IMG/VR virus record: IMGVR_UViG_3300029957_000005
Coordinates: 128,001 to 163,358 of that record
Length of the DNA: 35,358 nt
Direction: 5' to 3' (one strand)
DNA from: a virus
Lineage: Duplodnaviria; Heunggongvirae; Uroviricota; Caudoviricetes
Below, in pieces: positions 1 to 6,971 of the stretch. Each line of letters starts with the position of its first letter. Positions within the stretch are counted from its first letter, which is position 1. The position numbers and the translations under genes were made by a program. A model generated the notes under the pieces. That model had not been told where the DNA came from. It worked only from the letters and a program-made list of their open reading frames with translations, and ran no database searches.

Positions 1-17
1 CGATCCTTTGTTAGTAC

Positions 18-115
18 TTGAGTGGGAACCATCCCCGATCGGCACAATGTGGATCGATCTTTCAGATTTTACCCAGGGAACCTAAGCTCCACAGTTGACG
101 CTACGAACCACTCAA
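18..115 (-). ncRNA. Structured ncRNA candidate
   Basis: Closing stem TTGAGTGG/CCACTCAA; inner TGTGGA/TCCACA enclosing two small hairpins; immediately 3' of tRNA-Gln. Confidence 0.5.
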
Positions 116-118
116 ATT

Positions 119-194
119 TGGATCTCCGAGTAGGTCTCGAACCTACGTTGACCTGGTTCAATGCCAGGGGTCCTGCCAATTAGACGATCGGAGA
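119..194 (-). tRNA. tRNA-Gln(UUG), A33 instead of U33
   Basis: Cloverleaf TCTCCGA/TCGGAGA, loop CATTGAA, T-loop TTCGAGA, encoded CCA. Confidence 0.9.
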
Positions 195-398
195 ATGTTT
201 CTTGTCTTCGAGAAGCTTCTGGATCTTATCCCAGACTGCGGCTGGAGCTTTCCAGACCTGCCCATTCGGGAGTCCGGTCTTCGGATCCACCAAAGCCACG
301 AAGTGATACTTCGGAAAGTAGGTTTCCATCAGAACCGTCTCGGCTGAGAAGGTGTCTTCGAATTTCTGCTTTGGCTGGCCTAGATCTGAGTTGATCAT
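180..398 (-). CDS. Hypothetical protein, 72 aa
   Basis: AAGGAAG RBS; fills gap between tRNAs; stop overlaps tRNA 5' end. Confidence 0.7.
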   Translation of the reverse strand: MINSDLGQPKQKFEDTFSAETVLMETYFPKYHFVALVDPKTGLPNGQVWKAPAAVWDKIQKLLEDKKHSPIV

Positions 399-414
399 TT
401 GCTTCCTTTGAAAT

Positions 415-501
415 TGGAGTACCGGGCGAGATTCGAACTCGCGGTGTCCTTTCGGAATCGGATTAAAAGTCCGACGTCGTCGACCGCTTGACTACCGGTA
501 C
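415..501 (-). tRNA. tRNA-Lys(UUU) with long variable arm, U73
   Basis: GTACCGG/CCGGTAC, loop CTTTTAA, variable arm TTCCGAAAGGACACC, CCA. Confidence 0.9.
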
Positions 502-504
502 ATG

Positions 505-873
505 TTACTTGGAGTGAGCCCTGCAGAAGGCGAGTGACTCACTCAAATTCGTGGAGATGATGTCCGTCTCCGTGAAGATCTTGTGCCTCAGTTCCCGGAC
601 TCCTTCCGGTTCATCGAAGGCAGTTCTGAAGTCGACCTGAGCCAGCTTTCCCAGTCTCGAGAGTCTTCCTTCGAGCTGAGCGATCTCAGCCCTGAGTTGG
701 AGCTCGATTGGATAGGAATGCAACTCGTCGAACTGAGACTGAACACCGAGAAGATTTTCGCGAAGGACTTGAGGGTCCACGCCTGGAACGTAGTCAACAT
801 GGACCTTCGTAGCTCCAATCAGCTTTCTGTATTCCTCGACTACGGCTTCGCAGTCCAATTCATTCTGAGTCAT
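505..873 (-). CDS. Hypothetical protein (start MTQNELD, 122 aa)
   Basis: ATG at 873 with GGAAGAAG upstream; the longer ORF start runs into a tRNA-like gene. Confidence 0.75.
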   Translation of the reverse strand: MTQNELDCEAVVEEYRKLIGATKVHVDYVPGVDPQVLRENLLGVQSQFDELHSYPIELQLRAEIAQLEGRLSRLGKLAQVDFRTAFDEPEGVRELRHKIFTETDIISTNLSESLAFCRAHSK

Positions 874-888
874 TTCACTTCTTCCATA

Positions 889-978
889 TGGCGCGCTCGG
901 AGGGAGTCGAACCCCCATTGATGCAATCTCCTCCGATTACGGTTACTGCGGGGTAGAAACCCGGACCGGTACGAGCGC
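889..978 (-). tRNA. Non-canonical D-armless tRNA-Arg(UCU)-like RNA
   Basis: Acceptor GCGCTCG/CGAGCGC, T-arm with TTCGACT, CCA, anticodon hairpin CGGG-TTTCTAC-CCCG, no D-arm, long 3' insert. Confidence 0.7.
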
Positions 979-985
979 TTGTCGA

Positions 986-1126
986 TTAGGACGCAGAACG
1001 AGCAATTGCCGAAATGTCAGCTCTTGCAATTCCGATGTCCGATAGTTCTCTGTTGGATAGGCTTGCAAGTTCGCTGACGGTGTGTCTGTAAACTTTCCAG
1101 GCCCTATACTTACGCATCAAATTCAT
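986..1126 (-). CDS. DUF1127 (YjiS-like) small Arg-rich protein, 46 aa
   Basis: Hand translation MNLMRKYRAWKVYRHTVSELASLSNRELSDIGIARADISAIARSAS fits the DUF1127 pattern W..YR.T..EL..LS.REL.DIGI.R.DI; AAGGAAG RBS; absent from ORF track. Confidence 0.9.
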   Translation of the reverse strand: MNLMRKYRAWKVYRHTVSELASLSNRELSDIGIARADISAIARSAS

Positions 1127-1191
1127 GTTTCTTCCTTTCGATTTGGTACTGTCTTATACTATACCAAAGAGGTAGAAATTAGAATTGATGA

Positions 1192-1396
1192 TTTGGAATA
1201 CCTAGTATTCCGAAATTCGATCGACTCCGTTTGCCGTTCCTTTCTTAGGGCCCGACTGCCTGTTTTCTAGAATGAACCAGATGACCACGGAGTCCGAGTA
1301 CGGTCACAATGCGTTGCGTGGCGCATTGTTTTCTGGTAGGTCACACCTTAAAGCCACCTAGCTGATGCATCTCCCGAGCTAGGTAGGACAGGTGGA
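1192..1396 (-). ncRNA. Multi-stem structured ncRNA candidate with possible pseudoknot
   Basis: ACCTAGCT/AGCTAGGT, ACCAGA/TCTGGT, ACAATGCG/CGCATTGT, GACTCCGT/ACGGAGTC, terminal GGAATA/TATTCC hairpin. Confidence 0.6.
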
Positions 1397-1398
1397 TA

Positions 1399-1484
1399 TG
1401 GAGGCGTGGGTGAGAATTGAACTCACTCTCATTGCTGAGACCTTGGCTTTGCAGGCCAGTTCGTTGCCGGTCCGACACCACGCC
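1399..1484 (-). tRNA. tRNA-Cys(GCA) with long variable arm
   Basis: GGCGTGG/CCACGCC, U73, loop CTGCAAA, variable hairpin TCTCA-GCAA-TGAGA. Confidence 0.9.
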
Positions 1485-1491
1485 TATAATT

Positions 1492-1581
1492 TGGAGTACC
1501 TGGAAGGATTCGAACCTTCGACGTCCTTACGGATCCGGATTAAGAGTCCGGCGCCTTCGACCAACTCGGCTACACAGGTAC
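1492..1581 (-). tRNA. tRNA-Lys(CUU) with long variable arm, U73
   Basis: GTACCTG/CAGGTAC, loop CTCTTAA, variable arm ATCCGTAAGGACGTC, 2 extra nt after acceptor 5' strand. Confidence 0.9.
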
Positions 1582-1600
1582 ATTTAGAGATTGATTGTCC

Positions 1601-1762
1601 TCAGAGCGTTTCGAGCTTCTTGTTCGGAAGGATCTTGCACCAGTTGAGGAGCGCACCACCTTCGACGAGAGCGCGAGACATCAGCATCTTTCCACGATAG
1701 ACTCCACCAACTTGAAGATGGGAGAAATTCCTGGAACGAACTTCTGAGGTAATCTTCAGCAT
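1601..1762 (-). CDS. Hypothetical early protein, 53 aa (MLKITSEVRSRN...)
   Basis: GGAGA RBS just downstream of an early promoter; hand translated; absent from ORF track. Confidence 0.65.
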   Translation of the reverse strand: MLKITSEVRSRNFSHLQVGGVYRGKMLMSRALVEGGALLNWCKILPNKKLETL

Positions 1763-1785
1763 ATCTATCTCCATTTGTTAGAAGC

Positions 1786-1813
1786 ATACTAACACATCAG
1801 GAGGAGATGTAAA
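1786..1813 (-). promoter_or_regulatory. T4-type early promoter
   Basis: TTTACA-N16-TAGTAT with TGTG upstream of -10; motif recurs five times in the window. Confidence 0.75.
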
Positions 1814-1822
1814 CTGAAAAAT

Positions 1823-1898
1823 TGGATCATCCACTAGGATTCGAACCTAGATTCTCCGACTTCAGAGGACGGCGTTCTACCAGTTAAACTACGGATGA
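1823..1898 (-). tRNA. tRNA-Gln(CUG)
   Basis: Cloverleaf, loop CTCTGAA, TTCGAAT, CCA. Confidence 0.93.
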
Positions 1899-1906
1899 AT
1901 ATGACC

Positions 1907-2401
1907 TTACTTCAGGTCTTTCGCCTTGACCCACTTGTCGTCGATGAAGACTTCAGAGAGGGACTCAGCTTGGTTTTCTGCCACGATCACGGACTCGTGG
2001 GGTCTTGGATTGGCCGAAACGTTCTTCGAAACGACCTTGACTTGAGACACAGTGCGAGAGATCCTGATGAAGGACCTATCGTCTGGATGGATCTTCCGAA
2101 ATTCAGCCAGCTGTCTGTTGTACTCTTCGTAGTACTTCTCGCGGTTCTCACCGTATGGACGGAAGGAGATGTCTGCTTCGAATTCGATGTAGTCCGGATT
2201 CTTATAGGAGACTTCGGCAAATCGATCCATCTGGACGACCTCGAGAACCTCTCTCCAGTAGGCCGATCCCTTGTTGGATCTCGAACCGGCAAAGCGGACT
2301 CGCATTCCTGGACGAAGGTTTTGAAGAACCCAGGTGGTTATCCGATCTTCACGATCTATGGTTCTCTGGGCCTGAGCCTGTGTTTCGTTATACCATGCCA
2401 T
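1907..2401 (-). CDS. Hypothetical protein, 164 aa
   Basis: TAAGGA RBS; fills inter-tRNA gap; phage-like codon use. Confidence 0.8.
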   Translation of the reverse strand: MAWYNETQAQAQRTIDREDRITTWVLQNLRPGMRVRFAGSRSNKGSAYWREVLEVVQMDRFAEVSYKNPDYIEFEADISFRPYGENREKYYEEYNRQLAEFRKIHPDDRSFIRISRTVSQVKVVSKNVSANPRPHESVIVAENQAESLSEVFIDDKWVKAKDLK

Positions 2402-2422
2402 TCTATGTTCCTTATTTCAAAT

Positions 2423-2494
2423 TGGTCCCTCTGCCGGGTAACGCTCCTGGAGAATCAGCCTTATGAGAGCCGTTCGACCACTTGATCCAGAGGG
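2423..2494 (-). tRNA. tRNA(CAU), Met or Ile2, atypical T-loop
   Basis: CCCTCTG/CAGAGGG, loop CTCATAA, T-loop AGCGTTA, CCA. Confidence 0.8.
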
Positions 2495-2500
2495 ATGTTT

Positions 2501-2574
2501 TGGTGCGGGTACAGAGACTCGAACTCTGGACTCCTGGTTGGAAGCCAGGCACGTTTCCTCTACGCCATACACGC
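2501..2574 (-). tRNA. tRNA-Gly(UCC), A73
   Basis: Loop CTTCCAA, T-loop TTCGAGT, CCA. Confidence 0.9.
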
Positions 2575-2581
2575 GTTGTTT

Positions 2582-2657
2582 TGGTGCGACTTCTTGGTTT
2601 CGATCCAAGCTCCCTGGTTTTTCAAACCAGCGCTTTCACCAGATTAGCTTAAGCCGC
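2582..2657 (-). tRNA. tRNA-Phe(GAA)
   Basis: Loop TTGAAAA, T-loop ATCGAAA, CCA. Confidence 0.9.
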
Positions 2658-2665
2658 ATGTTAGT

Positions 2666-2772
2666 ATTCGACCTCTTAGTCCTGCACGTCTCGGGAGAGA
2701 ATTTATCGGTTTTACCAGCAGTCCATGTTAAGTTAGTCCACGTTGTCCCGTTGCTCGTGGATTAGGTCGAAT
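2666..2772 (-). ncRNA. Structured ncRNA candidate
   Basis: 9-bp closing stem ATTCGACCT/AGGTCGAAT, hairpin TCCACG/CGTGGA, possible CGGGA/TCCCG long-range pairing. Confidence 0.55.
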
Positions 2773-2774
2773 TA

Positions 2775-2868
2775 TGGCGGAAGACGGAGAGCCCGAGTCC
2801 CATACGTGGTCTTAGCACGTACGCATCGCTTTCCAAGCGAGCCCAGCACCCTGTCTGGTTCATCTTCC
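2775..2868 (-). tRNA. tRNA-Ser(GGA), 8/4 fold
   Basis: 8-bp acceptor GGAAGATG/CGTCTTCC, 4-bp T-stem, long variable arm, G73. Confidence 0.85.
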
Positions 2869-2873
2869 ATATT

Positions 2874-2973
2874 TGGCGGACACTGTGAGGTTCTCACTCA
2901 CCATAGAGGTCGACAGCTTCTATCCATTAAGTTTCATCACGACCCGGACTGGGCAGGATGAAACTCCGTGTCC
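2874..2973 (-). ncRNA. Ser-like tRNA mimic with no canonical D or anticodon arm
   Basis: GGACAC/GTGTCC + GCCA, T-like arm TGAG-TGAGAAC-CTCA, long hairpin AGTTTCATC/GATGAAACT, variable-arm-like ATAGA/TCTAT. Confidence 0.7.
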
Positions 2974-2981
2974 ATATTCAA

Positions 2982-3070
2982 TGGCGGAAGGCAGAGGTCT
3001 CGATCCCCACACCCGTGAGGGTGCTCACTGCTTTCGAAGCAGGTCCAGAACCCCGTCTGGTTTACCTTCC
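2982..3070 (-). tRNA. tRNA-Ser(CGA), 8/4 fold
   Basis: GGAAGGTA/TGCCTTCC, loop TTCGAAA, long variable arm, G73. Confidence 0.87.
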
Positions 3071-3073
3071 AAT

Positions 3074-3166
3074 TGGCGGAAGACTGAGGTCACGCTCCCC
3101 ACACGTGGTACTAGCACGTGCCCACTGCTTTCAAGGCAGGTCCGATCCTCGACCGGTTAGTCTTCC
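3074..3166 (-). tRNA. tRNA-Ser(UGA), 8/4 fold
   Basis: GGAAGACT/AGTCTTCC, loop CTTGAAA, T-loop AGCGTGA, G73. Confidence 0.87.
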
Positions 3167-3172
3167 ATGTTT

Positions 3173-3249
3173 TGGTCCCGCCATCGGGATTTGAACCCGA
3201 GTCGCCTACCTTGAGAGGGTAGCATTCTTGACCACTAAACTACAGCGGG
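3173..3249 (-). tRNA. tRNA-Glu(CUC)
   Basis: Canonical cloverleaf, loop CTCTCAA. Confidence 0.93.
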
Positions 3250-3255
3250 TAATCT

Positions 3256-3332
3256 TGGTCCTCTTGAAAGGATTCGAACCTTCAACCTTGGCGTTAGGAG
3301 TGCCGAGCTCTGTCCGGTTGAGCTACAAGAGG
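3256..3332 (-). tRNA. tRNA-Arg(CCU)
   Basis: Canonical cloverleaf, loop CTCCTAA. Confidence 0.93.
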
Positions 3333-3337
3333 ATAAT

Positions 3338-3414
3338 TGGTCCGGCTGATGGGATTCGAACCCACATTGGACTCCTTGAAAGGGAGGCTTCCTAGGCCAT
3401 TAGAAGACAGCCGG
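3338..3414 (-). tRNA. tRNA-Glu(UUC)
   Basis: Canonical cloverleaf, loop CTTTCAA. Confidence 0.93.
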
Positions 3415-3422
3415 TTAATAAA

Positions 3423-3496
3423 GAGAGGCTCAGGAGTGTATGCCTGACTTACGCTGTCACCTCCGCTTGGTGACAGACCTAGGCTCCGAGGAGCAA
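3423..3496 (-). ncRNA. Small structured RNA candidate
   Basis: Hairpins CTGTCACC/GGTGACAG, TCAGG/CCTGA and GCTCC/GGAGC fill the spacer. Confidence 0.45.
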
Positions 3497-3498
3497 AT

Positions 3499-3573
3499 TG
3501 GCTGCAGAGGCTGGGTGTGAGCCAGCACCTCCGTCCCACAACGGGACGGCGCTCTCCATTAAGCTACTCCACA
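3499..3573 (-). tRNA. tRNA-like RNA, undetermined anticodon (7-bp stem, 5-nt loop GTTGT)
   Basis: Acceptor, D-arm and CCA present; anticodon arm CCGTCCC-GTTGT-GGGACGG; T-loop CTCACAC. Confidence 0.7.
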
Positions 3574-3574
3574 A

Positions 3575-3650
3575 TGGCGAGGATGACGGTATTCGAAACC
3601 GCAACTATTCCGCAGACAACGGAGCACCCTTCCCAGAGGGTCCCATCCCC
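3575..3650 (-). tRNA. tRNA-Asp(GUC), U37
   Basis: GGGGATG/CATCCTC, G73, loop TTGTCTG. Confidence 0.85.
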
Positions 3651-3652
3651 AT

Positions 3653-3803
3653 TAAGCTCTGTTCAAACCTCTCTCTTCGAGATACCGGATGGAGGGTGAG
3701 GACCTACATCTTTCCCCTCCCTCACGAAGAGCGGCAGCCATATTGGACCGCAGCCACATTGGACCGTAGCCGTCTTGAAGAGAAGAAGTTAGAACAGAGC
3801 TTA
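3653..3803 (-). ncRNA. Promoter-proximal long-stem ncRNA with internal 16-nt repeats
   Basis: Ends pair over about 30 bp (TAAGCTCTGTTC/GAACAGAGCTTA and beyond); begins 7 nt after an early -10 box. Confidence 0.7.
3734..3771. repeat. 16-bp tandem repeat x2.4 (GCAGCCAYATTGGACC)
   Basis: gcagccatattggacc gcagccacattggacc gtagcc. Confidence 0.85.
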
Positions 3804-3810
3804 CTGTGTT

Positions 3811-3839
3811 AGTCTATCATGCTTGTGAAGGCATGTAAA
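3811..3839 (-). promoter_or_regulatory. T4-type early promoter
   Basis: TTTACA-N17-TAGACT with TGn extension. Confidence 0.75.
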
Positions 3840-3842
3840 CTG

Positions 3843-3873
3843 AAAAAGTGGAGAAATGACCATGTTTCTCCGC
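3843..3873 (-). terminator. Intrinsic terminator
   Basis: GCGGAGAAA/TTTCTCCAC stem followed by TTTTT. Confidence 0.75.
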
Positions 3874-3889
3874 GAAGCAATTAAGAGCT

Positions 3890-3966
3890 TAACCTTTTGC
3901 AGACCGACAGACTTTCGTCTGACCTTATGTTTATCCACCGTGGGTCTATAGCGCAATCACGGTGCG
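3890..3966 (-). ncRNA. Pseudoknot-type RNA candidate
   Basis: CACCGTG/CACGGTG stem whose loop AGACC can pair with downstream GGTCT; inserted CAGAC-GAAA-GTCTG hairpin. Confidence 0.45.
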
Positions 3967-3974
3967 TTGGAATA

Positions 3975-4066
3975 TGGTGGGCCCCGGGACGTATCGCACG
4001 CCTTGCCGCATAGGGACCTGGTTTACAGCCAGGCAACCGGACTTCCGATTCTTACTTGCGGGGCCC
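3975..4066 (-). tRNA. tRNA-Tyr(GUA), atypical (8-bp acceptor, enlarged D region)
   Basis: GGGCCCCG/CGGGGCCC, loop CTGTAAA, T-loop TGCGATA, A73. Confidence 0.8.
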
Positions 4067-4072
4067 ATATGA

Positions 4073-4180
4073 AGGATTTTGCATTCTGCACGAATGAGAG
4101 TCGAACTCAATCGTTCCGGGACTTACACCCGTCTGCATCCTACTGGGAGAACCCATCTCCCTGCCCTTGTCGGGCATCTC
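4073..4180 (-). ncRNA. Structured RNA with two T-loop-like hairpins
   Basis: CGGG-TGTAAGT-CCCG and TGAG-TTCGACT-CTCA inside AGGAT/ATCCT, plus TGCCC/GGGCA and GGGAGA/TCTCCC; no CCA. Confidence 0.6.
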
Positions 4181-4185
4181 TGATT

Positions 4186-4261
4186 TGGCACGGGAAGCCA
4201 GATTCGAACTGACTCTAAACGTTTTGGAGACGTTTGTGCTAGGCCATTACACCATACCCGT
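4186..4261 (-). tRNA. tRNA-Trp(CCA)
   Basis: Canonical, loop CTCCAAA, G73. Confidence 0.93.
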
Positions 4262-4265
4262 ATGT

Positions 4266-4502
4266 TCACTTCACGAAGTGAGGCTGACCTTCCTTGGCCT
4301 TCCACTTCAATCCCTTCCAACCAGACGGGATGTAGTGAGAGATGCCAAAGGCATCGAAGAGACGATGACCACCTGACTTGGAGACGTTGAGCCAGAGAGG
4401 CTCCTCGATCCTGATAGTTTCGCCTACGAACTTGTATTCGCGCCATTCCTCCGAAGAGATATCCACGAATTCCAATCCCGACTTATTGTTGAAGTCTGAC
4501 AT
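4266..4502 (-). CDS. Hypothetical protein (start MSDFNNK, 78 aa)
   Basis: AAAGGA RBS before ATG at 4502; fills inter-tRNA gap. Confidence 0.8.
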   Translation of the reverse strand: MSDFNNKSGLEFVDISSEEWREYKFVGETIRIEEPLWLNVSKSGGHRLFDAFGISHYIPSGWKGLKWKAKEGQPHFVK

Positions 4503-4528
4503 GATTGAATTTCCTTTCTCTGTCAAAT

Positions 4529-4604
4529 TGGTACCAGTACTAGGTTACGCTCCTAGCTATACACGGTTATCGGCCGCGCCTCGTCACTAGCTGAGTCTAC
4601 TGGC
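4529..4604 (-). tRNA. tRNA-Ile(GAU), A18/G55 type, C33
   Basis: Loop CCGATAA, D-loop AG, T-loop AGCGTAA. Confidence 0.87.
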
Positions 4605-4610
4605 ATATTA

Positions 4611-4686
4611 TGGTGCTCTATCCAGGTATCGCGCCTGGTGCCTCCTGGATGTCGACCAGGCGTCTTTACTAACTGACCCATAGAGC
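4611..4686 (-). tRNA. tRNA-Val(GAC), A18/G55 type, C33
   Basis: Loop TCGACAT, T-loop CGCGATA. Confidence 0.87.
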
Positions 4687-4692
4687 ATTAAT

Positions 4693-4767
4693 TGGAACTA
4701 GAGGAGAGGCTCGAACTCTCAATTCCGGGGACACAACCCAGCCGGTTACCATTACCGTCACTCTAGC
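4693..4767 (-). tRNA. tRNA-His(GUG), no G-1, G1-U72, U37
   Basis: GCTAGAG/CTCTAGT, loop TTGTGTC, position -1 is T. Confidence 0.85.
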
Positions 4768-4777
4768 ATGTTCGTTT

Positions 4778-4869
4778 TGGTACGCGATCTGGGTTTCGAT
4801 CCCAGTCAAGAACGGTCATCTACCGCTAAAGGCTTTATAAGGGCCTCTCATGTCCCAACATCATCGCGT
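4778..4869 (-). tRNA. tRNA-Ile(UAU) with long variable arm
   Basis: ACGCGAT/ATCGCGT, loop CTTATAA, variable hairpin AGCGGT-AGATG-ACCGTT. Confidence 0.8.
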
Positions 4870-4877
4870 ATTCTAAT

Positions 4878-4954
4878 TGGTAGGCCTAGAGGGAGTTGAA
4901 CCCACAACCACTACGTTCTAAGCGTAGCCGCTTTGCCAATTTGCGTATAAGCCC
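4878..4954 (-). tRNA. tRNA-Leu(UAG), short variable loop
   Basis: Loop CTTAGAA, 5-nt variable loop, A73. Confidence 0.9.
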
Positions 4955-4960
4955 ATATTT

Positions 4961-5037
4961 TGGTGCTCTGAGAGGGAGTCGAACCCTCACTGTACGGCAT
5001 CTCAGTCCGCTTCCTCTACCAATTGGGATATCAGAGC
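4961..5037 (-). tRNA. tRNA-Leu(GAG), short variable loop
   Basis: Loop CTGAGAT, 5-nt variable loop, A73. Confidence 0.88.
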
Positions 5038-5045
5038 AATTCGTT

Positions 5046-5121
5046 TGGAGCCCACATCGGGTAACGCTCCCGCTTCACCGGTTTACAGGACCGGACCTCA
5101 TCTAATAAAGGCGTTGTGGGC
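5046..5121 (-). tRNA. tRNA-Thr(UGU), A18/G55 type, C33
   Basis: Loop CCTGTAA, T-loop AGCGTTA. Confidence 0.83.
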
Positions 5122-5128
5122 AGATAGG

Positions 5129-5182
5129 AAGGAGAGGCTCCGTCTTGATCACCGATCAGACCACCGAGTAGTTCCTCTCCTT
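5129..5182 (-). ncRNA. Irregular hairpin RNA candidate
   Basis: AAGGAGAGG/CCTCTCCTT closing stem with inner GTCT-GATC/GATC-AGAC. Confidence 0.4.
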
Positions 5183-5185
5183 GAT

Positions 5186-5260
5186 TGGAGCTTCCTGTCA
5201 GTAACGCTCTGACTTCTCACCCTTACGAAAGGCGCACATCGCTTTTAATGCTTAGGAAGC
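5186..5260 (-). tRNA. tRNA-Thr(CGU), A18/G55 type
   Basis: Loop TTCGTAA, T-loop AGCGTTA. Confidence 0.85.
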
Positions 5261-5267
5261 ATGAATT

Positions 5268-5330
5268 GATCGAGGCCTTGCACCTCGCCAGCCGTAGCAT
5301 TGTTAGAGACCTATGACGCGGCTCAGGTCT
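5268..5330 (-). ncRNA. H-type pseudoknot followed by a T-loop hairpin
   Basis: AGACCTG/TAGGTCT, loop AGCCG pairs with downstream CGGCT, then CGAGG-TGCAAGG-CCTCG. Confidence 0.55.
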
Positions 5331-5332
5331 TT

Positions 5333-5408
5333 TGGTTGCGGGGGCTGGGTTTGAACCAGCGTCTCCGGCTTATGAGGCCAGCAAGGAACCGGGCTCCTCT
5401 ACCCCGCA
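5333..5408 (-). tRNA. tRNA-Met(CAU), initiator-like
   Basis: TGCGGGG/CCCCGCA, A11-U24, loop CTCATAA; lacks the full three G-C anticodon-stem pairs. Confidence 0.88.
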
Positions 5409-5421
5409 ATATTCCGGTTGT

Positions 5422-5477
5422 TGGTATCAGGGCGAATCACCTCATGAAAGCGATTCCGTCGGCCGACTGACCCTGAG
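5422..5477 (-). ncRNA. 56-nt CCA-ended, T-armless mini-tRNA-like RNA with CAU loop
   Basis: TCAGGG/CCCTGA + TACCA; GAATCGCT-TTCATGA-GGTGATTC hairpin. Confidence 0.55.
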
Positions 5478-5479
5478 AA

Positions 5480-5554
5480 TGGTGGCCCCTCTCCCTTGCA
5501 AGGAAAGATCCTCTCCCTCAACGGGAGCGCTTTGTGCCTTTAAGCTAAAGGGCC
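5480..5554 (-). tRNA. tRNA-like RNA, undetermined anticodon (5-nt loop GTTGA)
   Basis: GGCCCTT/AGGGGCC + ACCA, D-arm, CTCCC-GTTGA-GGGAG, T-loop CTTGCAA. Confidence 0.7.
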
Positions 5555-5559
5555 AAACT

Positions 5560-5633
5560 TGGTGCTCTCAATAGGTTACGCTCCTATCTCTGCTCCTTAC
5601 CAAAGAGCTATTCTACTAATGAAATATGAGAGC
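5560..5633 (-). tRNA. tRNA-Thr(GGU), A18/G55 type
   Basis: Loop TTGGTAA, T-loop AGCGTAA. Confidence 0.87.
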
Positions 5634-5638
5634 AAATA

Positions 5639-5713
5639 TGGTACTTCCTGAGAATTCCGAGATCTCGACCTTCGGTATGTAACACCGCTGCTCTGCCTCT
5701 GAGCTAAGGAAGT
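5639..5713 (-). tRNA. tRNA-Val(UAC)
   Basis: Loop GTTACAT, atypical T-loop CTCGGAA, A73. Confidence 0.85.
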
Positions 5714-5725
5714 ATGAATTCTTCT

Positions 5726-5799
5726 CGACGAACCTGCAAGGAATCGAACCCTGTGTTTCCCTCTGCACGAGAGCGTCCTATCCACTAGACGAAGGTTCT
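5726..5799 (-). tRNA. tRNA-like RNA or pseudo-tRNA (5-nt loop GTGCA, no encoded CCA)
   Basis: D-arm GTCT/GGAC, T-arm with TTCGATT, acceptor GAACCT/AGGTTC. Confidence 0.6.
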
Positions 5800-5800
5800 C

Positions 5801-5906
5801 AGACAAAGACCGATCCGGCAAGACCGGCATAATCGTCTGCGAGTCAACAAGGCCCGAGTGGATTGCCGTCCAACCTTCCTTGTTCGAAGAGGGTAACAAT
5901 CTCTTC
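5801..5906 (-). ncRNA. Three-hairpin structured spacer
   Basis: GAAGAG/CTCTTC, AACAAGG/CCTTGTT, AGAC..CCGG/CCGG..GTCT. Confidence 0.4.
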
Positions 5907-5910
5907 TTAA

Positions 5911-5987
5911 TGGTGCCTAAGGAGGTATTCGAAACCTCATACACCTCTTTTTGAGGGAGGCCGCTTTGCCTCTTTGCGTACTCAGGC
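5911..5987 (-). tRNA. tRNA-Leu(CAA), short variable loop
   Basis: Loop CTCAAAA, 5-nt variable loop, A73. Confidence 0.9.
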
Positions 5988-5992
5988 TTATT

Positions 5993-6067
5993 TGGTGGAG
6001 AAGGTGGGTAACGCTCCCACTAGGCTGGAATCTTGCAAGGATTCCCCGGGTATCTCACCCCATCCCC
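5993..6067 (-). tRNA. tRNA-Ala(UGC), reduced D-arm
   Basis: G3-U70, loop CTTGCAA, T-loop AGCGTTA. Confidence 0.83.
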
Positions 6068-6078
6068 AATTCTTGAAT

Positions 6079-6142
6079 TGGTGCCACCGATAGCCGAAGA
6101 GACAACAATGATTACCGCTCGGTGGCAACACGGGTCATTGTA
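6079..6142 (-). ncRNA. CCA-ended pseudoknotted small RNA
   Basis: GCCACCGA/TCGGTGGC + ACCA; 5' ACAATGA complementary to loop TCATTGT. Confidence 0.6.
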
Positions 6143-6144
6143 TT

Positions 6145-6218
6145 TGGAGCGGATAGTGGGGATCAAACCCACCTCAACGGCTTGGAAGGCCGAGGCACAG
6201 TCACTATACCATATCCGC
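6145..6218 (-). tRNA. tRNA-Gly(UCC), second copy, U73
   Basis: GCGGATA/TATCCGC, loop CTTCCAA, A19/U56 swap. Confidence 0.9.
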
Positions 6219-6224
6219 AGTAAT

Positions 6225-6314
6225 TGGCTCCTATCGCAGGTACCGCCCCTGCCCCACCTTTCGATGGCCTTCCGGTTAACAGCCGGAGACTTTCACTATG
6301 CCAGTCCGATAGGA
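6225..6314 (-). tRNA. tRNA-Asn(GUU) with long variable arm
   Basis: TCCTATC/GATAGGA, G73, loop CTGTTAA, variable hairpin CCATC-GAAA-GGTGG, T-loop GGCGGTA. Confidence 0.85.
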
Positions 6315-6317
6315 ATA

Positions 6318-6606
6318 TTGCTCTTTCGAGCAAAACGACTAAACCGATATTTGGTCAGAATGGCCTCGGTTAAAGGGCAGCAGAAAATTCGATGGGTCCA
6401 CGTTTTGAAAGGACCGGACCCTTTACGCTTGGAGTTAAGTGGGTAAGTCCACCTCCAGAACGACTCGTATACCTTCTTTGGAGTCCGACTCTTACTGCCG
6501 GATACCTGTAAAGGACAATCTTCAATTGTCTAAGAACCCGAGCTTTCTTAGGCTCGTACCTTCCGGAGAAGGATTTCTGACCGAGCCCAGTTGGTCTCAA
6601 GGTCGT
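6318..6606 (-). ncRNA. About 290-nt highly structured ncRNA, unknown family
   Basis: Ten or more stems incl. ACGAC/GTCGT, GGTCAGAA/TTCTGACC, CCTTTAC/GTAAAGG, GGGTCC/GGACCC; no credible ORF; bounded by tRNAs. Confidence 0.65.
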
Positions 6607-6608
6607 AT

Positions 6609-6683
6609 TGGTCAGGATGGTTGGTAACGCTCCAACTTTGCGGACTTCCAAGGTCCACCGATGATCTTATCTCTTACACCCTG
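6609..6683 (-). tRNA. tRNA-Pro(UGG), A18/G55 type, A37
   Basis: CAGGGTG/CATCCTG, loop CTTGGAA, T-loop AGCGTTA. Confidence 0.85.
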
Positions 6684-6757
6684 TTTATGCACTCGGATCT
6701 TTATCCTATCACGTTTTTCGGTCGTCTGAAACTCTTTTTTCGGTTTCAGTTAAAATT

Positions 6758-6840
6758 TGGAGCTCACGACAGGCTTCGAACCTGCATCTACCTATCCAGT
6801 TACCTTTGTCCTCGTTCGTAGCGAGGGGGGATACGTGAGC
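6758..6840 (-). tRNA. Non-canonical D-armless tRNA-Arg(ACG)-like RNA
   Basis: GCTCACG/CGTGAGC + TCCA, CCTCG-CTACGAA-CGAGG, T-loop TTCGAAG, no D-arm. Confidence 0.75.
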
Positions 6841-6914: not shown

Positions 6915-6943
6915 ACTCTACTCTAAGATGGAAAGCTTGTAAA
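6915..6943 (-). promoter_or_regulatory. T4-type early promoter at the head of the tRNA array
   Basis: TTTACA-N17-TAGAGT. Confidence 0.75.
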
Positions 6944-6971
6944 CAGAAAAATTGAAGAATGTCGAATTTTT

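What the first reader, a model, noticed from the sequence alone, without database searches (positions are those of the whole stretch)
18..6840. tRNA array doubles as a cassette of about ten unknown structured RNAs
Seen: nearly every spacer over 50 nt that lacks an ORF is filled with stems, often closed by paired ends (18-115, 1192-1396, 2666-2772, 3423-3496, 3653-3803, 3890-3966, 4073-4180, 5129-5182, 5268-5330, 5801-5906, 6318-6606). Known: T4 has two RNAs of unknown function (RnaC, RnaD) in its tRNA cluster. Inference: tRNA processing punctuates the transcript and releases a panel of early small RNAs, possibly decoys or anti-defence RNAs. Best candidate for an undescribed system in this window.
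Basis: partly seen in the sequence, partly recalled or inferred. Interest (0 to 1): 0.8.

Follow-up and report, generated by a model that had tools for sequence, protein, structure and literature searches.

The report
Conserved structured RNAs between phage tRNAs
The gaps between tRNA genes in this T4-like phage hold at least nine conserved folded RNAs that match no described RNA family, and one of them also sits in the tRNA arrays of unrelated phages, including a cultured Pseudomonas putida phage where it could be tested.

Summary
All tRNAs lie on the minus strand. They form an RNA island driven by four look-alike promoters.

**Conservation.** Nine of the 11 listed spacers have homologues in three to four related uncultured phages. 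Identity is 72-92%, as good as core genes (65-86%) and better than the ORFs inside the array (61-70%).

**Structure.** Seven families show compensatory base changes: 6318-6606, 4073-4180, 3653-3803, 3423-3496, 2666-2772, 1192-1396 and 5843-5906. Three have weak support (18-115, 5129-5182, 3890-3966). 5268-5330 has none.

**Strand and coding.** G.U pairs outnumber A.C 108 to 16, which puts the RNAs on the tRNA strand. No reading frame is conserved.

**Known families.** Nothing matches Rfam. Covariance models of three families find nothing in T4, so homology to RnaC/RnaD is not detectable.

**Best case.** 2663-2777 is a roughly 100-nt junction RNA with 41 invariant positions in its 87-nt core and a possible pseudoknot. 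It occurs in 10 phage lineages, once in each of the four larger records searched. It usually starts 1-5 nt after a tRNA's CCA. One carrier is the cultured Pseudomonas phage vB_PpuM-Amme-3.

**Reading.** These are autonomous small RNAs released by tRNA processing. Their function is unknown, and nothing supports the decoy or anti-defence idea. The scan had notes only on this same window, not on other DNA.

The parts
6915..6949 (-). Promoter of the first RNA transcription unit (TTTTTCTGTTTACA-N17-TAGAGT).
   Evidence: It is one of four copies of this motif in the genome, all on the minus strand within the tRNA/tmRNA island (D15, 103).
6318..6606 (-). Multi-hairpin RNA of about 290 nt, lying between tRNA-Pro and a type-II Asn tRNA.
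   Evidence: 85% identical to L015:11467-11747 and 75% to L013:11650-11919. 98.9% of cells are paired against 28-49% when the partners are slid, and 9 of 72 pairs changed on both sides. No Rfam match even at E<=10.
5801..5906 (-). Two conserved hairpins at 5843-5906. The 3' part (5801-5842) is not conserved.
   Evidence: 78% identical to L015 over the first 64 nt. 4 of 18 pairs changed on both sides in two sequences. z = -1.2.
5268..5330 (-). Spacer with no support as a structured RNA.
   Evidence: z = -0.2. No homologue in any relative.
5129..5182 (-). Single hairpin with a 9-bp closing stem and a conserved inner sequence.
   Evidence: 81% identical to L008:1404-1452. One double change (GGAGAGG/CCTCTCC to GGAAAGG/CCTTTCC). 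z = -2.3.
4066..4186 (-). RNA of about 120 nt between tRNA-Trp and tRNA-Tyr. It has two 5' hairpins, then a domain closed by a 5-7 bp stem that holds a 7-nt-loop hairpin and an 8-9 bp stem capped by a T-loop (TTCGAYT).
   Evidence: 93% identical in L145, 85% in L015 and 75% in L008. 7 of 29 pairs changed on both sides, 94% paired. Model R3 finds a single copy in the genome and none in T4.
3890..3966 (-). 3' trailer after tRNA-Tyr, ahead of the terminator. Support is weak.
   Evidence: z = -0.6. Only a 68% match in L145, with 3 of 16 pairs changed on both sides in two sequences.
3811..3871 (-). Intrinsic terminator (3871-3850) followed by the second promoter (3839-3811).
   Evidence: The stretch 3804-3889 is 81-87% identical in L145, L015 and L008.
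3653..3803 (-). 5' leader RNA: a stem of about 31 bp that begins just after the promoter's -10 box and ends at the 5' end of tRNA-Asp. It encloses an invariant purine-rich core (GTGAGGRAGGGGAAAGA...GGTCCTCACCC...TCCGGTATCTC).
   Evidence: z = -6.6. 72% identical in L015 and L145, with 10 of 49 pairs changed on both sides.
3423..3496 (-). Two covarying hairpins with the invariant run GCGTAAGTC-GGCATACACTCC.
   Evidence: 91% identical in L145 and 77% in L015. 6 of 17 pairs changed on both sides in three sequences.
2663..2777 (-). Motif 1. P1 is a closing stem of 6-10 bp. P2 is a hairpin with the invariant 13-nt loop AGCAACGGGACAA. P3 encloses P4 (U.G plus 3 bp, AAA loop) and the invariant run GAUAAAnnCUCUCCCGAG. 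A pseudoknot CGGGA:UCCCG is possible.
   Evidence: Ten lineages carry it: the window group (window, L012, L145), L008, L015, L063, L069, L142, L143, L144 and Pseudomonas phage Amme-3. 93.7% paired against 21-48% slid, and 10 of 21 pairs changed on both sides. P1 is present in all nine distinct sequences scored, with different sequences. Model R1 scores 77-99 bits.
1786..1819 (-). Third promoter of the same class.
   Evidence: (D15).
1207..1398 (-). RNA of about 190 nt after the type-II Cys tRNA, always upstream of the DUF1127 ORF (986-1126). It has a hairpin with the conserved loop CGGGAGAUGCAUCAG, a variable hairpin, and a domain closed by the invariant pairing GACUCCGUGGUC...GGCAAACGGAGUC.
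   Evidence: 92% identical in L145, 89% in L012, 80% in L015 and 73% in L008. 22 of 51 pairs changed on both sides, 93.4% paired against 31-39% slid. DUF1127 assignment by Pfam, E = 5.7e-15.
14..118 (-). RNA of about 100 nt that begins 3 nt after tRNA-Gln(UUG) in every relative. It is closed by the invariant 9-bp stem UUUGAGUGG/CCACUCAAA.
   Evidence: 85% identical in L008 and 78% in L015. 99% paired against 24-50% slid, but only one double change. Model R2 finds a single copy per genome and none in T4.

Best explanation
The 7-kb stretch is part of a dedicated stable-RNA island on the minus strand. Four promoters of one type (TTTTTCAGTTTACA-N17-TAGAGT) drive polycistronic precursors. These carry canonical tRNAs, non-canonical tRNAs, a few small ORFs, a tmRNA, and at least nine non-tRNA segments that selection keeps folded.

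The folded segments abut tRNA ends. The cuts that mature the tRNAs (RNase P at 5' ends; endonuclease plus trimming after the encoded CCA at 3' ends) therefore also define the ends of these segments and free them as discrete small RNAs. This is how T4 RnaC and RnaD arise.

The segments are independent modules rather than aids to a particular neighbouring tRNA. Each is single-copy where whole records could be searched. Each has its own invariant loops, and the neighbours differ between relatives. Motif 1 (2663-2777) travels alone into unrelated phages.

Their most likely role is as trans-acting RNAs that bind a protein or ligand during infection. Motif 1 has the look of an aptamer or ribozyme core: four covarying helices, 41 invariant positions in its 87-nt core, and a possible loop-to-internal-loop pseudoknot. 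3653-3803 is different. It is a promoter-proximal leader whose stem of about 31 bp is a likely RNase III or stability element.

Shown: conservation, covariation, strand, non-coding nature, absence from Rfam, and position. Inferred: co-transcription, release by processing, stability, and action in trans.
For: Strand and setting:
- All tRNAs are on the minus strand.
- The promoter class occurs four times in the genome, only in this island. A terminator lies at 3871-3850.

Conservation:
- Spacers are 72-92% identical to relatives.
- Array ORFs are only 61-70% identical at the DNA level in the same relatives, and core genes 65-86%.

Structure:
- Covariation counts far exceed slid and shuffled controls.
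- G.U cells outnumber A.C cells 108 to 16.

Non-coding: no conserved frame, and most indels are 1-2 nt.

Not a known family:
- No Rfam match.
- Models R1-R3 each give one significant match in the window's own genome; R1 also gives one in each of three other viral records.

Independence of the modules:
- Motif 1 is in 10 lineages, including two other T4-like contigs and a P. putida phage in which the Gp23 profile found no match.
- It starts 1-5 nt after the CCA of Ser, Asp, Phe or Ala tRNAs.
- The 4073-4180 family sits exactly between Trp and Tyr in L008 but after Leu in L015.

Precedent: T4 RNAC/RNAD (PMC3014915) and GOLLD/ROOL near phage tRNA islands (PMC12286853).
Against: - No transcript or end-mapping data exist, so release and stability are untested.
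- Five of 11 spacers fold no better than shuffles.
- Most families rest on only 3-4 lineages, so several helices are invariant and untestable.
- The shuffle control does not correct for relatedness.
- No partner, ligand or target is known for any element.
- 1207-1398 always precedes the DUF1127 gene and could be its 5' UTR.
- 18-115 is followed within about 20 nt by an ORF in this genome.
Confidence: 0.6

Rival explanations
1. The elements act in cis as processing, folding or stability devices for the array. They would serve as structured insulators that stop neighbouring (often non-canonical) tRNAs from misfolding, as entry sites for RNase III or RNase E, or as protective 5'/3' stems. They would have no function once excised.
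For: The elements are flush with tRNA ends. 3653-3803 is a 31-bp leader stem right after a promoter. Several are simple hairpins (5129-5182, 5843-5906). Many neighbouring tRNAs have odd T-loops or shapes.
Against: Long invariant single-stranded loops are more than an insulator needs: the 13-nt loop of Motif 1, CGGGAGAUGCAUCAG in 1207-1398, and blocks in 6318-6606. Neighbouring tRNAs differ between lineages. Motif 1 occurs alone in unrelated arrays.
Confidence: 0.22
2. The elements are descendants of tRNA genes: tRNA-like RNAs or decayed tRNAs. They would still be recognised by tRNA enzymes and may act as mimics or decoys.
For: 4066-4186 keeps an 8-9 bp stem with a T-loop (TTCGAYT) and an acceptor-like closing stem. 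Relaxed ARAGORN gives weak calls inside 3653-3803, 4073-4180 and 6318-6606. T4 rnaC and rnaD have tRNA-like 3' parts. The array is full of non-canonical tRNAs.
Against: None of the 11 ends in CCA, has a D arm, or has a conserved 7-nt anticodon loop. L008 has a 10-nt loop at that place in the 4073 family. The covariation-supported folds of Motif 1, 1207-1398, 3653-3803 and 6318-6606 are not cloverleaves. The Rfam tRNA model gives no match in them at E<=1.
Confidence: 0.1
3. Some elements are cis-regulatory 5' UTRs of the small ORFs embedded in the array. 1207-1398 would serve the DUF1127 gene and 18-115 the ORF that follows it.
For: The 1207-1398 family lies upstream of a DUF1127 (YjiS-like) ORF in the window, L012, L015 and L008. 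An ORF with a ribosome-binding site starts about 20 nt after 18-115.
Against: In L008 a 51-aa ORF and about 250 nt separate the element from DUF1127. The gene after the 18-115 family differs in L015 and L008, whereas the upstream tRNA-Gln is constant. An extended -10 box lies between 1207 and the DUF1127 start; this is read from the sequence and was not tested.
Confidence: 0.08

Closest known systems
T4 RnaC and RnaD (species 1 and 2 RNAs)
   Same: Small non-tRNA RNAs encoded inside the tRNA cluster of a T4-type phage, on the tRNA strand and next to tRNA ends. Their function is unknown (PMC3014915).
   Different: No detectable homology. Models R1, R2 and R3 find nothing in the whole T4 genome. 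Short word matches between 18-115 and rnaC/rnaD fall in parts that the relatives do not keep. T4 has two such RNAs, whereas this array has nine or more. T4 rnaD ends in CCA and rnaC has a T arm. Most elements here have neither.
GOLLD and ROOL large ornate RNAs
   Same: Phage and prophage non-coding RNAs of unknown function, often located in or beside tRNA islands (PMC12286853).
   Different: Those are about 500-800 nt or more and have Rfam models, and neither model matches here. The present elements are 55-290 nt with unrelated folds.
RNase III processing stalks of rRNA operons and T7 early transcripts
   Same: 3653-3803 pairs its 5' and 3' ends into a duplex of about 31 bp at the start of a stable-RNA transcript. 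The comparison with RNase III substrates rests on general knowledge.
   Different: The stem encloses a conserved purine-rich core rather than an rRNA. Cleavage was not tested.
Rhodobacter ccaF1 (DUF1127) with its co-transcribed CcsR small RNAs
   Same: A DUF1127 ORF sits beside conserved structured RNAs.
   Different: Here the RNA is upstream of the ORF, shows no Rfam match, and lies in a phage tRNA array.

Membership tests
Any Rfam 15 family (4227 models) | Covariance-model score at or above the family's gathering threshold. | tested here: not met
   The only matches over threshold are tRNAs outside the 11 spacers. At E<=1 nothing falls inside the spacers. For 6300-6615 there are no matches even at E<=10.
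tRNA | Cloverleaf with a 7-bp acceptor stem, D arm, 7-nt anticodon loop, T arm, and discriminator plus CCA (encoded throughout this array). | tested here: not met
   My CCA-anchored cloverleaf scans find the canonical and non-canonical tRNAs but none of the 11 spacers. Only 4066-4186 has a T-arm-like hairpin, and it lacks a D arm, a CCA and a conserved anticodon loop.
T4 RnaC / RnaD | Sequence and structure homology to T4 rnaC (NC_000866 70908-71046) or rnaD (71053-71171). | tested here: not met
   R1, R2 and R3 give no hit in the whole T4 genome at E<=1. Local alignments are significant only for the window's copy of 18-115 and not for its relatives. The families 6318-6606, 1207-1398 and 3653-3803 were tested only by local alignment.
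T4 RnaC / RnaD | Location inside a T4-type phage tRNA cluster, on the same strand, adjacent to tRNA ends. | tested here: met
   UvsW, RNase H, RNR; Gp23.
GOLLD / ROOL | Match to the Rfam models; size above 500 nt. | tested here: not met
   No match. The largest element is 290 nt.
Self-cleaving ribozymes (hammerhead, twister, twister-sister, pistol, hatchet, HDV-like) | Match to the family model; self-cleavage in vitro. | tested here: inconclusive
   No Rfam match. Catalysis by Motif 1 or the others cannot be tested with these tools.
Protein-coding small ORF | One reading frame kept open across homologues; indels in multiples of three. | tested here: not met
   The longest open frames differ in frame or strand between homologues, and most internal gaps are 1-2 nt.

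The most novel reading that the evidence does not exclude
Motif 1 (window 2663-2777) is a new class of catalytic or ligand/protein-sensing RNA that spreads horizontally with phage tRNA arrays. More broadly, phage tRNA arrays would be general expression platforms for a hidden repertoire of functional small RNAs, some of which act on host tRNA metabolism or defence.
Probability: 0.2. Interest if true: 0.85.

Novelty: new variant of a known kind. Interest (0 to 1): 0.72.

Why it matters
Phage tRNA clusters are usually annotated as tRNAs plus junk spacers. Here the spacers are kept as well as core genes and carry covarying helices and invariant loops, so one array encodes about as many non-tRNA RNA families as T4 has tRNAs.

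This turns the 50-year-old puzzle of T4 RnaC/RnaD into a comparative problem with many families. It also supplies one motif (Motif 1) with enough lineages to define a consensus.

That motif has a cultured carrier, Pseudomonas phage vB_PpuM-Amme-3 on P. putida KT2440/PaW85. In the deposited record the motif is overlapped by an antisense 'hypothetical protein' call. Function therefore becomes directly testable.

The finding also warns that gene callers place spurious CDSs over such RNAs.

Tried and rejected
- **Close relatives in public phage sets.** There are none in INPHARED or IMG/VR by DNA or by UvsW. Relatives came only through array-ORF and Metallophos protein look-ups.
- **A bare 14-mer scan for the Motif 1 loop.** It gave mostly chance hits. 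Only 2 of the 80 loci returned were real, so I switched to a two-anchor pattern.
- **An 18-mer from 6318-6606.** It hit only an unrelated coding region in IMG/VR.
- **A two-anchor pattern for 1207-1398.** Nothing in IMG/VR or in 185,579 prokaryote genomes. The Motif 1 pattern is also absent from prokaryote genomes.
- **Homology to T4 RnaC/RnaD.** Rejected.
- **rRNA mimicry.** Only 4073-4180 resembles E. coli 16S 1086-1105 (18 of 19 nt plus one gap, score above all 100 shuffles). The L008 copy does not keep it, and 22 comparisons were made. I keep it as a lead only.
- **Distant relatives L020/L021** (38% Metallophos identity, 27 canonical tRNAs). None of the three modelled families was found there.
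- **BLAST of the whole 7-kb array against the two T4-like contigs that share Motif 1.** It finds only tRNAs, the Arg-ACG-like element and Motif 1. The other families are therefore clade-specific or too diverged to detect.
- **Published rhizobiophages RL38JI and RL2RES.** They are reported to have no tRNAs and are not this clade (PMC7067960).

Full report
**Setting.** The window is bases 128001-163358 of a single 163,358-bp virus contig with 52.6% G+C. It encodes UvsW, RNase H and ribonucleotide reductase and a Gp23-type capsid protein, so it is a T4-type phage. ARAGORN finds 23 tRNAs in window 119-6683, all on the minus strand. One more tRNA and a permuted tmRNA lie just outside the window.

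A promoter of one type (TTTTTCAGTTTACA-N17-TAGAGT) occurs four times in the genome. All four are on the minus strand and all lie in this island: at window 6949, 3845 and 1819, and at genome position 126202 ahead of the tmRNA. A terminator lies at 3871-3850.

Relaxed ARAGORN runs and my own CCA-anchored cloverleaf scans show that many gaps hold non-canonical tRNAs with odd T-loops such as AGCGTTA and with type-II shapes. The 11 intervals in this finding are what remains. Each lies within 2-9 nt of a tRNA end, a promoter or a terminator.

**Is the structure more than chance?** By folding energy alone the answer is mixed. Minus-strand z-scores against 300 dinucleotide shuffles are:
- -6.6 for 3653-3803
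- -3.1 for 4073-4180
- -2.9 for 1192-1396
- -2.5 for 6318-6606
- -2.3 for 5129-5182
- -2.0 for 2666-2772
- between -0.2 and -1.4 for the other five

**Relatives.** No close relative exists in INPHARED or IMG/VR. A 164-aa ORF inside the array (window 1907-2401) and the Metallophos protein upstream of it led to metagenomic contigs of three related lineages and two near-identical ones:
- L015/L002 type
- L008/L013 type
- L012 and L145, close to the window
- L020/L021, distant

**Conservation.** In these relatives the array ORF protein is 57-58% identical. At the DNA level the array ORFs are 61-70% identical and core genes 65-86%. Nine of the 11 spacers align at 72-92%. 3890-3966 has only a 68% match in L145. 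5268-5330 has none.

**Covariation.** RNAalifold consensus structures were scored with pair counts and controls.

| Family (window coordinates) | Sequences | Cells paired | Paired when slid | Pairs changed on both sides |
|---|---|---|---|---|
| 1207-1398 | 6 | 93.4% | 31-39% | 22 of 51 |
| 2677-2763 (Motif 1 core) | 9 | 93.7% | 21-48% | 10 of 21 |
| 3648-3812 | 3 | 93.8% | 43-55% | 10 of 49 |
| 6310-6612 | 4 | 98.9% | 28-49% | 9 of 72 |
| 4066-4186 | 4 | 94.0% | 35-63% | 7 of 29 |
| 3423-3496 | 3 | not scored | not scored | 6 of 17 |
| 5843-5906 | 2 | not scored | not scored | 4 of 18 |
| 14-118 | 4 | 99.1% | 24-50% | 1 of 27 |
| 5129-5182 | 2 | not scored | not scored | 1 of 14 |

The 14-118 family is too conserved to vary, so its fold is compatible with the data but not proven.

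Across the six large families, G.U cells number 108 and A.C cells 16. That is expected only if the RNA is read from the tRNA strand. It argues against a DNA-level feature. No frame is kept open across homologues, and most indels are 1-2 nt.

**Known families.** Rfam 15 gives nothing but tRNAs at gathering thresholds. At E<=1 nothing falls inside the spacers. For 6300-6615 there is nothing even at E<=10.

T4 rnaC and rnaD were fetched. Covariance models R1 (Motif 1), R2 (14-118) and R3 (4066-4186) find their own relatives at 77-145 bits, but they find nothing in the whole T4 genome. Short word matches between 18-115 and rnaC/rnaD fall in positions that its relatives do not keep. The T4 RNAs are therefore the right analogy (PMC3014915 says their roles are unknown) but not detectable homologues. 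GOLLD and ROOL, also found near phage tRNA islands (PMC12286853), do not match either.

**Motif 1 (2663-2777).** This is the best-defined element.
- P1 is a closing stem of 6-10 bp. It is present in all nine distinct sequences scored, with unrelated sequences.
- P2 is a 5-7 bp hairpin with the invariant loop AGCAACGGGACAA.
- A variable linker follows.
- P3 (4-6 bp) encloses P4 (U.G plus 3 bp with an AAA loop) and the invariant run GAUAAAnnCUCUCCCGAG.
- The P2 loop CGGGA could pair with UCCCG as a pseudoknot. Both are invariant, so covariation cannot test this.

Two-anchor pattern scans found Motif 1 in three IMG/VR contigs and three metagenome contigs. BLAST found it in the cultured Pseudomonas phage vB_PpuM-Amme-3 (PP496413.1 92327-92410; R1 gives 82.4 bits). 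There it lies 3 nt after the CCA of an unannotated Ala-like tRNA and 18 nt before tRNA-Ile, under an antisense 'hypothetical protein' call.

Two carrier contigs are T4-like. The Gp23 profile finds no match in Amme-3. The motif occurs once in each of the four larger records searched. By pattern it is absent from 185,579 prokaryote genomes. In 8 of 10 lineages P1 starts 1-5 nt after an encoded CCA, and the upstream tRNA varies (Ser, Asp, Phe, Ala). A BLAST of the whole 7-kb array against the two T4-like carriers finds Motif 1 and tRNAs but none of the other spacer families.

**Other elements.**
- 3653-3803 starts just after the -10 box of the second promoter. It forms a stem of about 31 bp, 7 of whose pairs changed on both sides, around an invariant purine-rich core, and it ends at the 5' end of tRNA-Asp. 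It is a leader. From general knowledge of RNase III substrates, it is a likely processing or stability stalk.
- 4066-4186 has two covarying 5' hairpins and a tRNA-like domain: a closing stem, a hairpin with a 7-nt loop, and an 8-9 bp stem with a TTCGAYT T-loop. In L008 it fills exactly the gap between tRNA-Trp and tRNA-Tyr.
- 1207-1398 always precedes a DUF1127 ORF.
- 14-118 always follows tRNA-Gln(UUG), while the gene after it differs between relatives.

**Interpretation.** The data show a set of independent, conserved, folded, non-coding RNAs on the tRNA strand. Their borders coincide with tRNA-processing sites. The best reading (confidence 0.6) is that tRNA maturation releases them as discrete small RNAs with functions of their own.

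The main rival (0.22) is that they serve only in cis as processing or insulating structures. The long invariant loops, the changing neighbours and the solitary spread of Motif 1 speak against that for the complex elements. It remains likely for the simple hairpins and for the leader. A tRNA-descendant or mimic reading (0.1) fits only 4066-4186. A 5' UTR reading (0.08) is possible for 1207-1398. Nothing tested here speaks to decoy or anti-defence roles.

**Limits.**
- No expression data exist.
- Most families rest on 3-4 lineages.
- The shuffle controls ignore relatedness between sequences.
- E-values from the short model calibrations are rough.
- Pattern scans need exact anchors and will miss diverged copies.

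Noticed in passing
window 2427-6840, minus strand (e.g. 6609-6683, 5993-6069, 5560-5633, 5186-5260, 5046-5121, 4529-4604, 2427-2495): About a dozen CCA-ending cloverleaves carry a non-standard T-loop (AGCGTTA, AGCGTAA or AGCGTGA) in place of TTCGAAT. Default ARAGORN or the Rfam thresholds miss most of them. Their anticodons (Ala TGC, Thr TGT/CGT, Ile GAT, Ser TGA/CGA/GGA, Tyr GTA, Asn GTT, Val TAC) fill gaps in the canonical set.
   Followed up: partly
window 415-501, 1399-1484, 1492-1581, 4778-4869, 6225-6314, minus strand: tRNAs with long variable arms (type-II shape) carry Lys (TTT, CTT), Cys (GCA), TAT and Asn (GTT) anticodons. This is unusual, because in bacteria the type-II shape is normally limited to Leu, Ser and Tyr.
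   Followed up: no
window 889-978, minus strand: A 90-nt tRNA-like element just after the DUF1127 ORF. It is 95.6% identical to a stretch of Sinorhizobium jumbo phage Phosso and 88% identical to Ochrobactrum phage vB_OspM_OC, where it lies under a 'hypothetical protein' call. It is 92-97% identical in L008 and L012.
   Followed up: partly
window 6758-6840, minus strand: An Arg(ACG)-anticodon RNA with acceptor and T arms but no evident D arm. It has a 75% match in the unrelated T4-like contig G001 at 84865-84966.
   Followed up: no
window 6684-6757, 6070-6144 and 5409-5479, minus strand: Further spacers that the finding did not list are also conserved: 85%, 72% and 88% identity to L015. 6070-6144 is a 7-bp minihelix ending in ACCA. 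5409-5479 is a hairpin ending in TACCA.
   Followed up: partly
window 4113-4132, minus strand (hairpin within 4066-4186): GGGTGTAAGTCCCGGAACGA matches E. coli 16S rRNA 1086-1105 at 18 of 19 positions plus one gap. The score exceeds all 100 shuffles. L015 keeps the match but L008 does not.
   Followed up: partly
L152:2297-2533 (PP496413.1 92127-92363): In Pseudomonas phage vB_PpuM-Amme-3 an antisense 'hypothetical protein' CDS overlaps an unannotated Ala-like tRNA (G3:U70, anticodon TGC) and the start of Motif 1. It is probably a spurious gene call.
   Followed up: partly
window 1197-1213: A perfect palindrome GGAATAC-TAG-GTATTCC lies between the 1207-1398 RNA and the DUF1127 gene. It is kept in L012 and in L015/L004 but absent from L008. 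It could be an operator or a hairpin.
   Followed up: no
genome 127597-128017 (just outside the window, minus strand): After 18-115 come an ORF of about 90 aa and another Ser-type type-II tRNA-like gene ending in CCTTCCGCCA. The RNA island continues to the tmRNA at genome 125406-125794, which has its own promoter of the same class.
   Followed up: no
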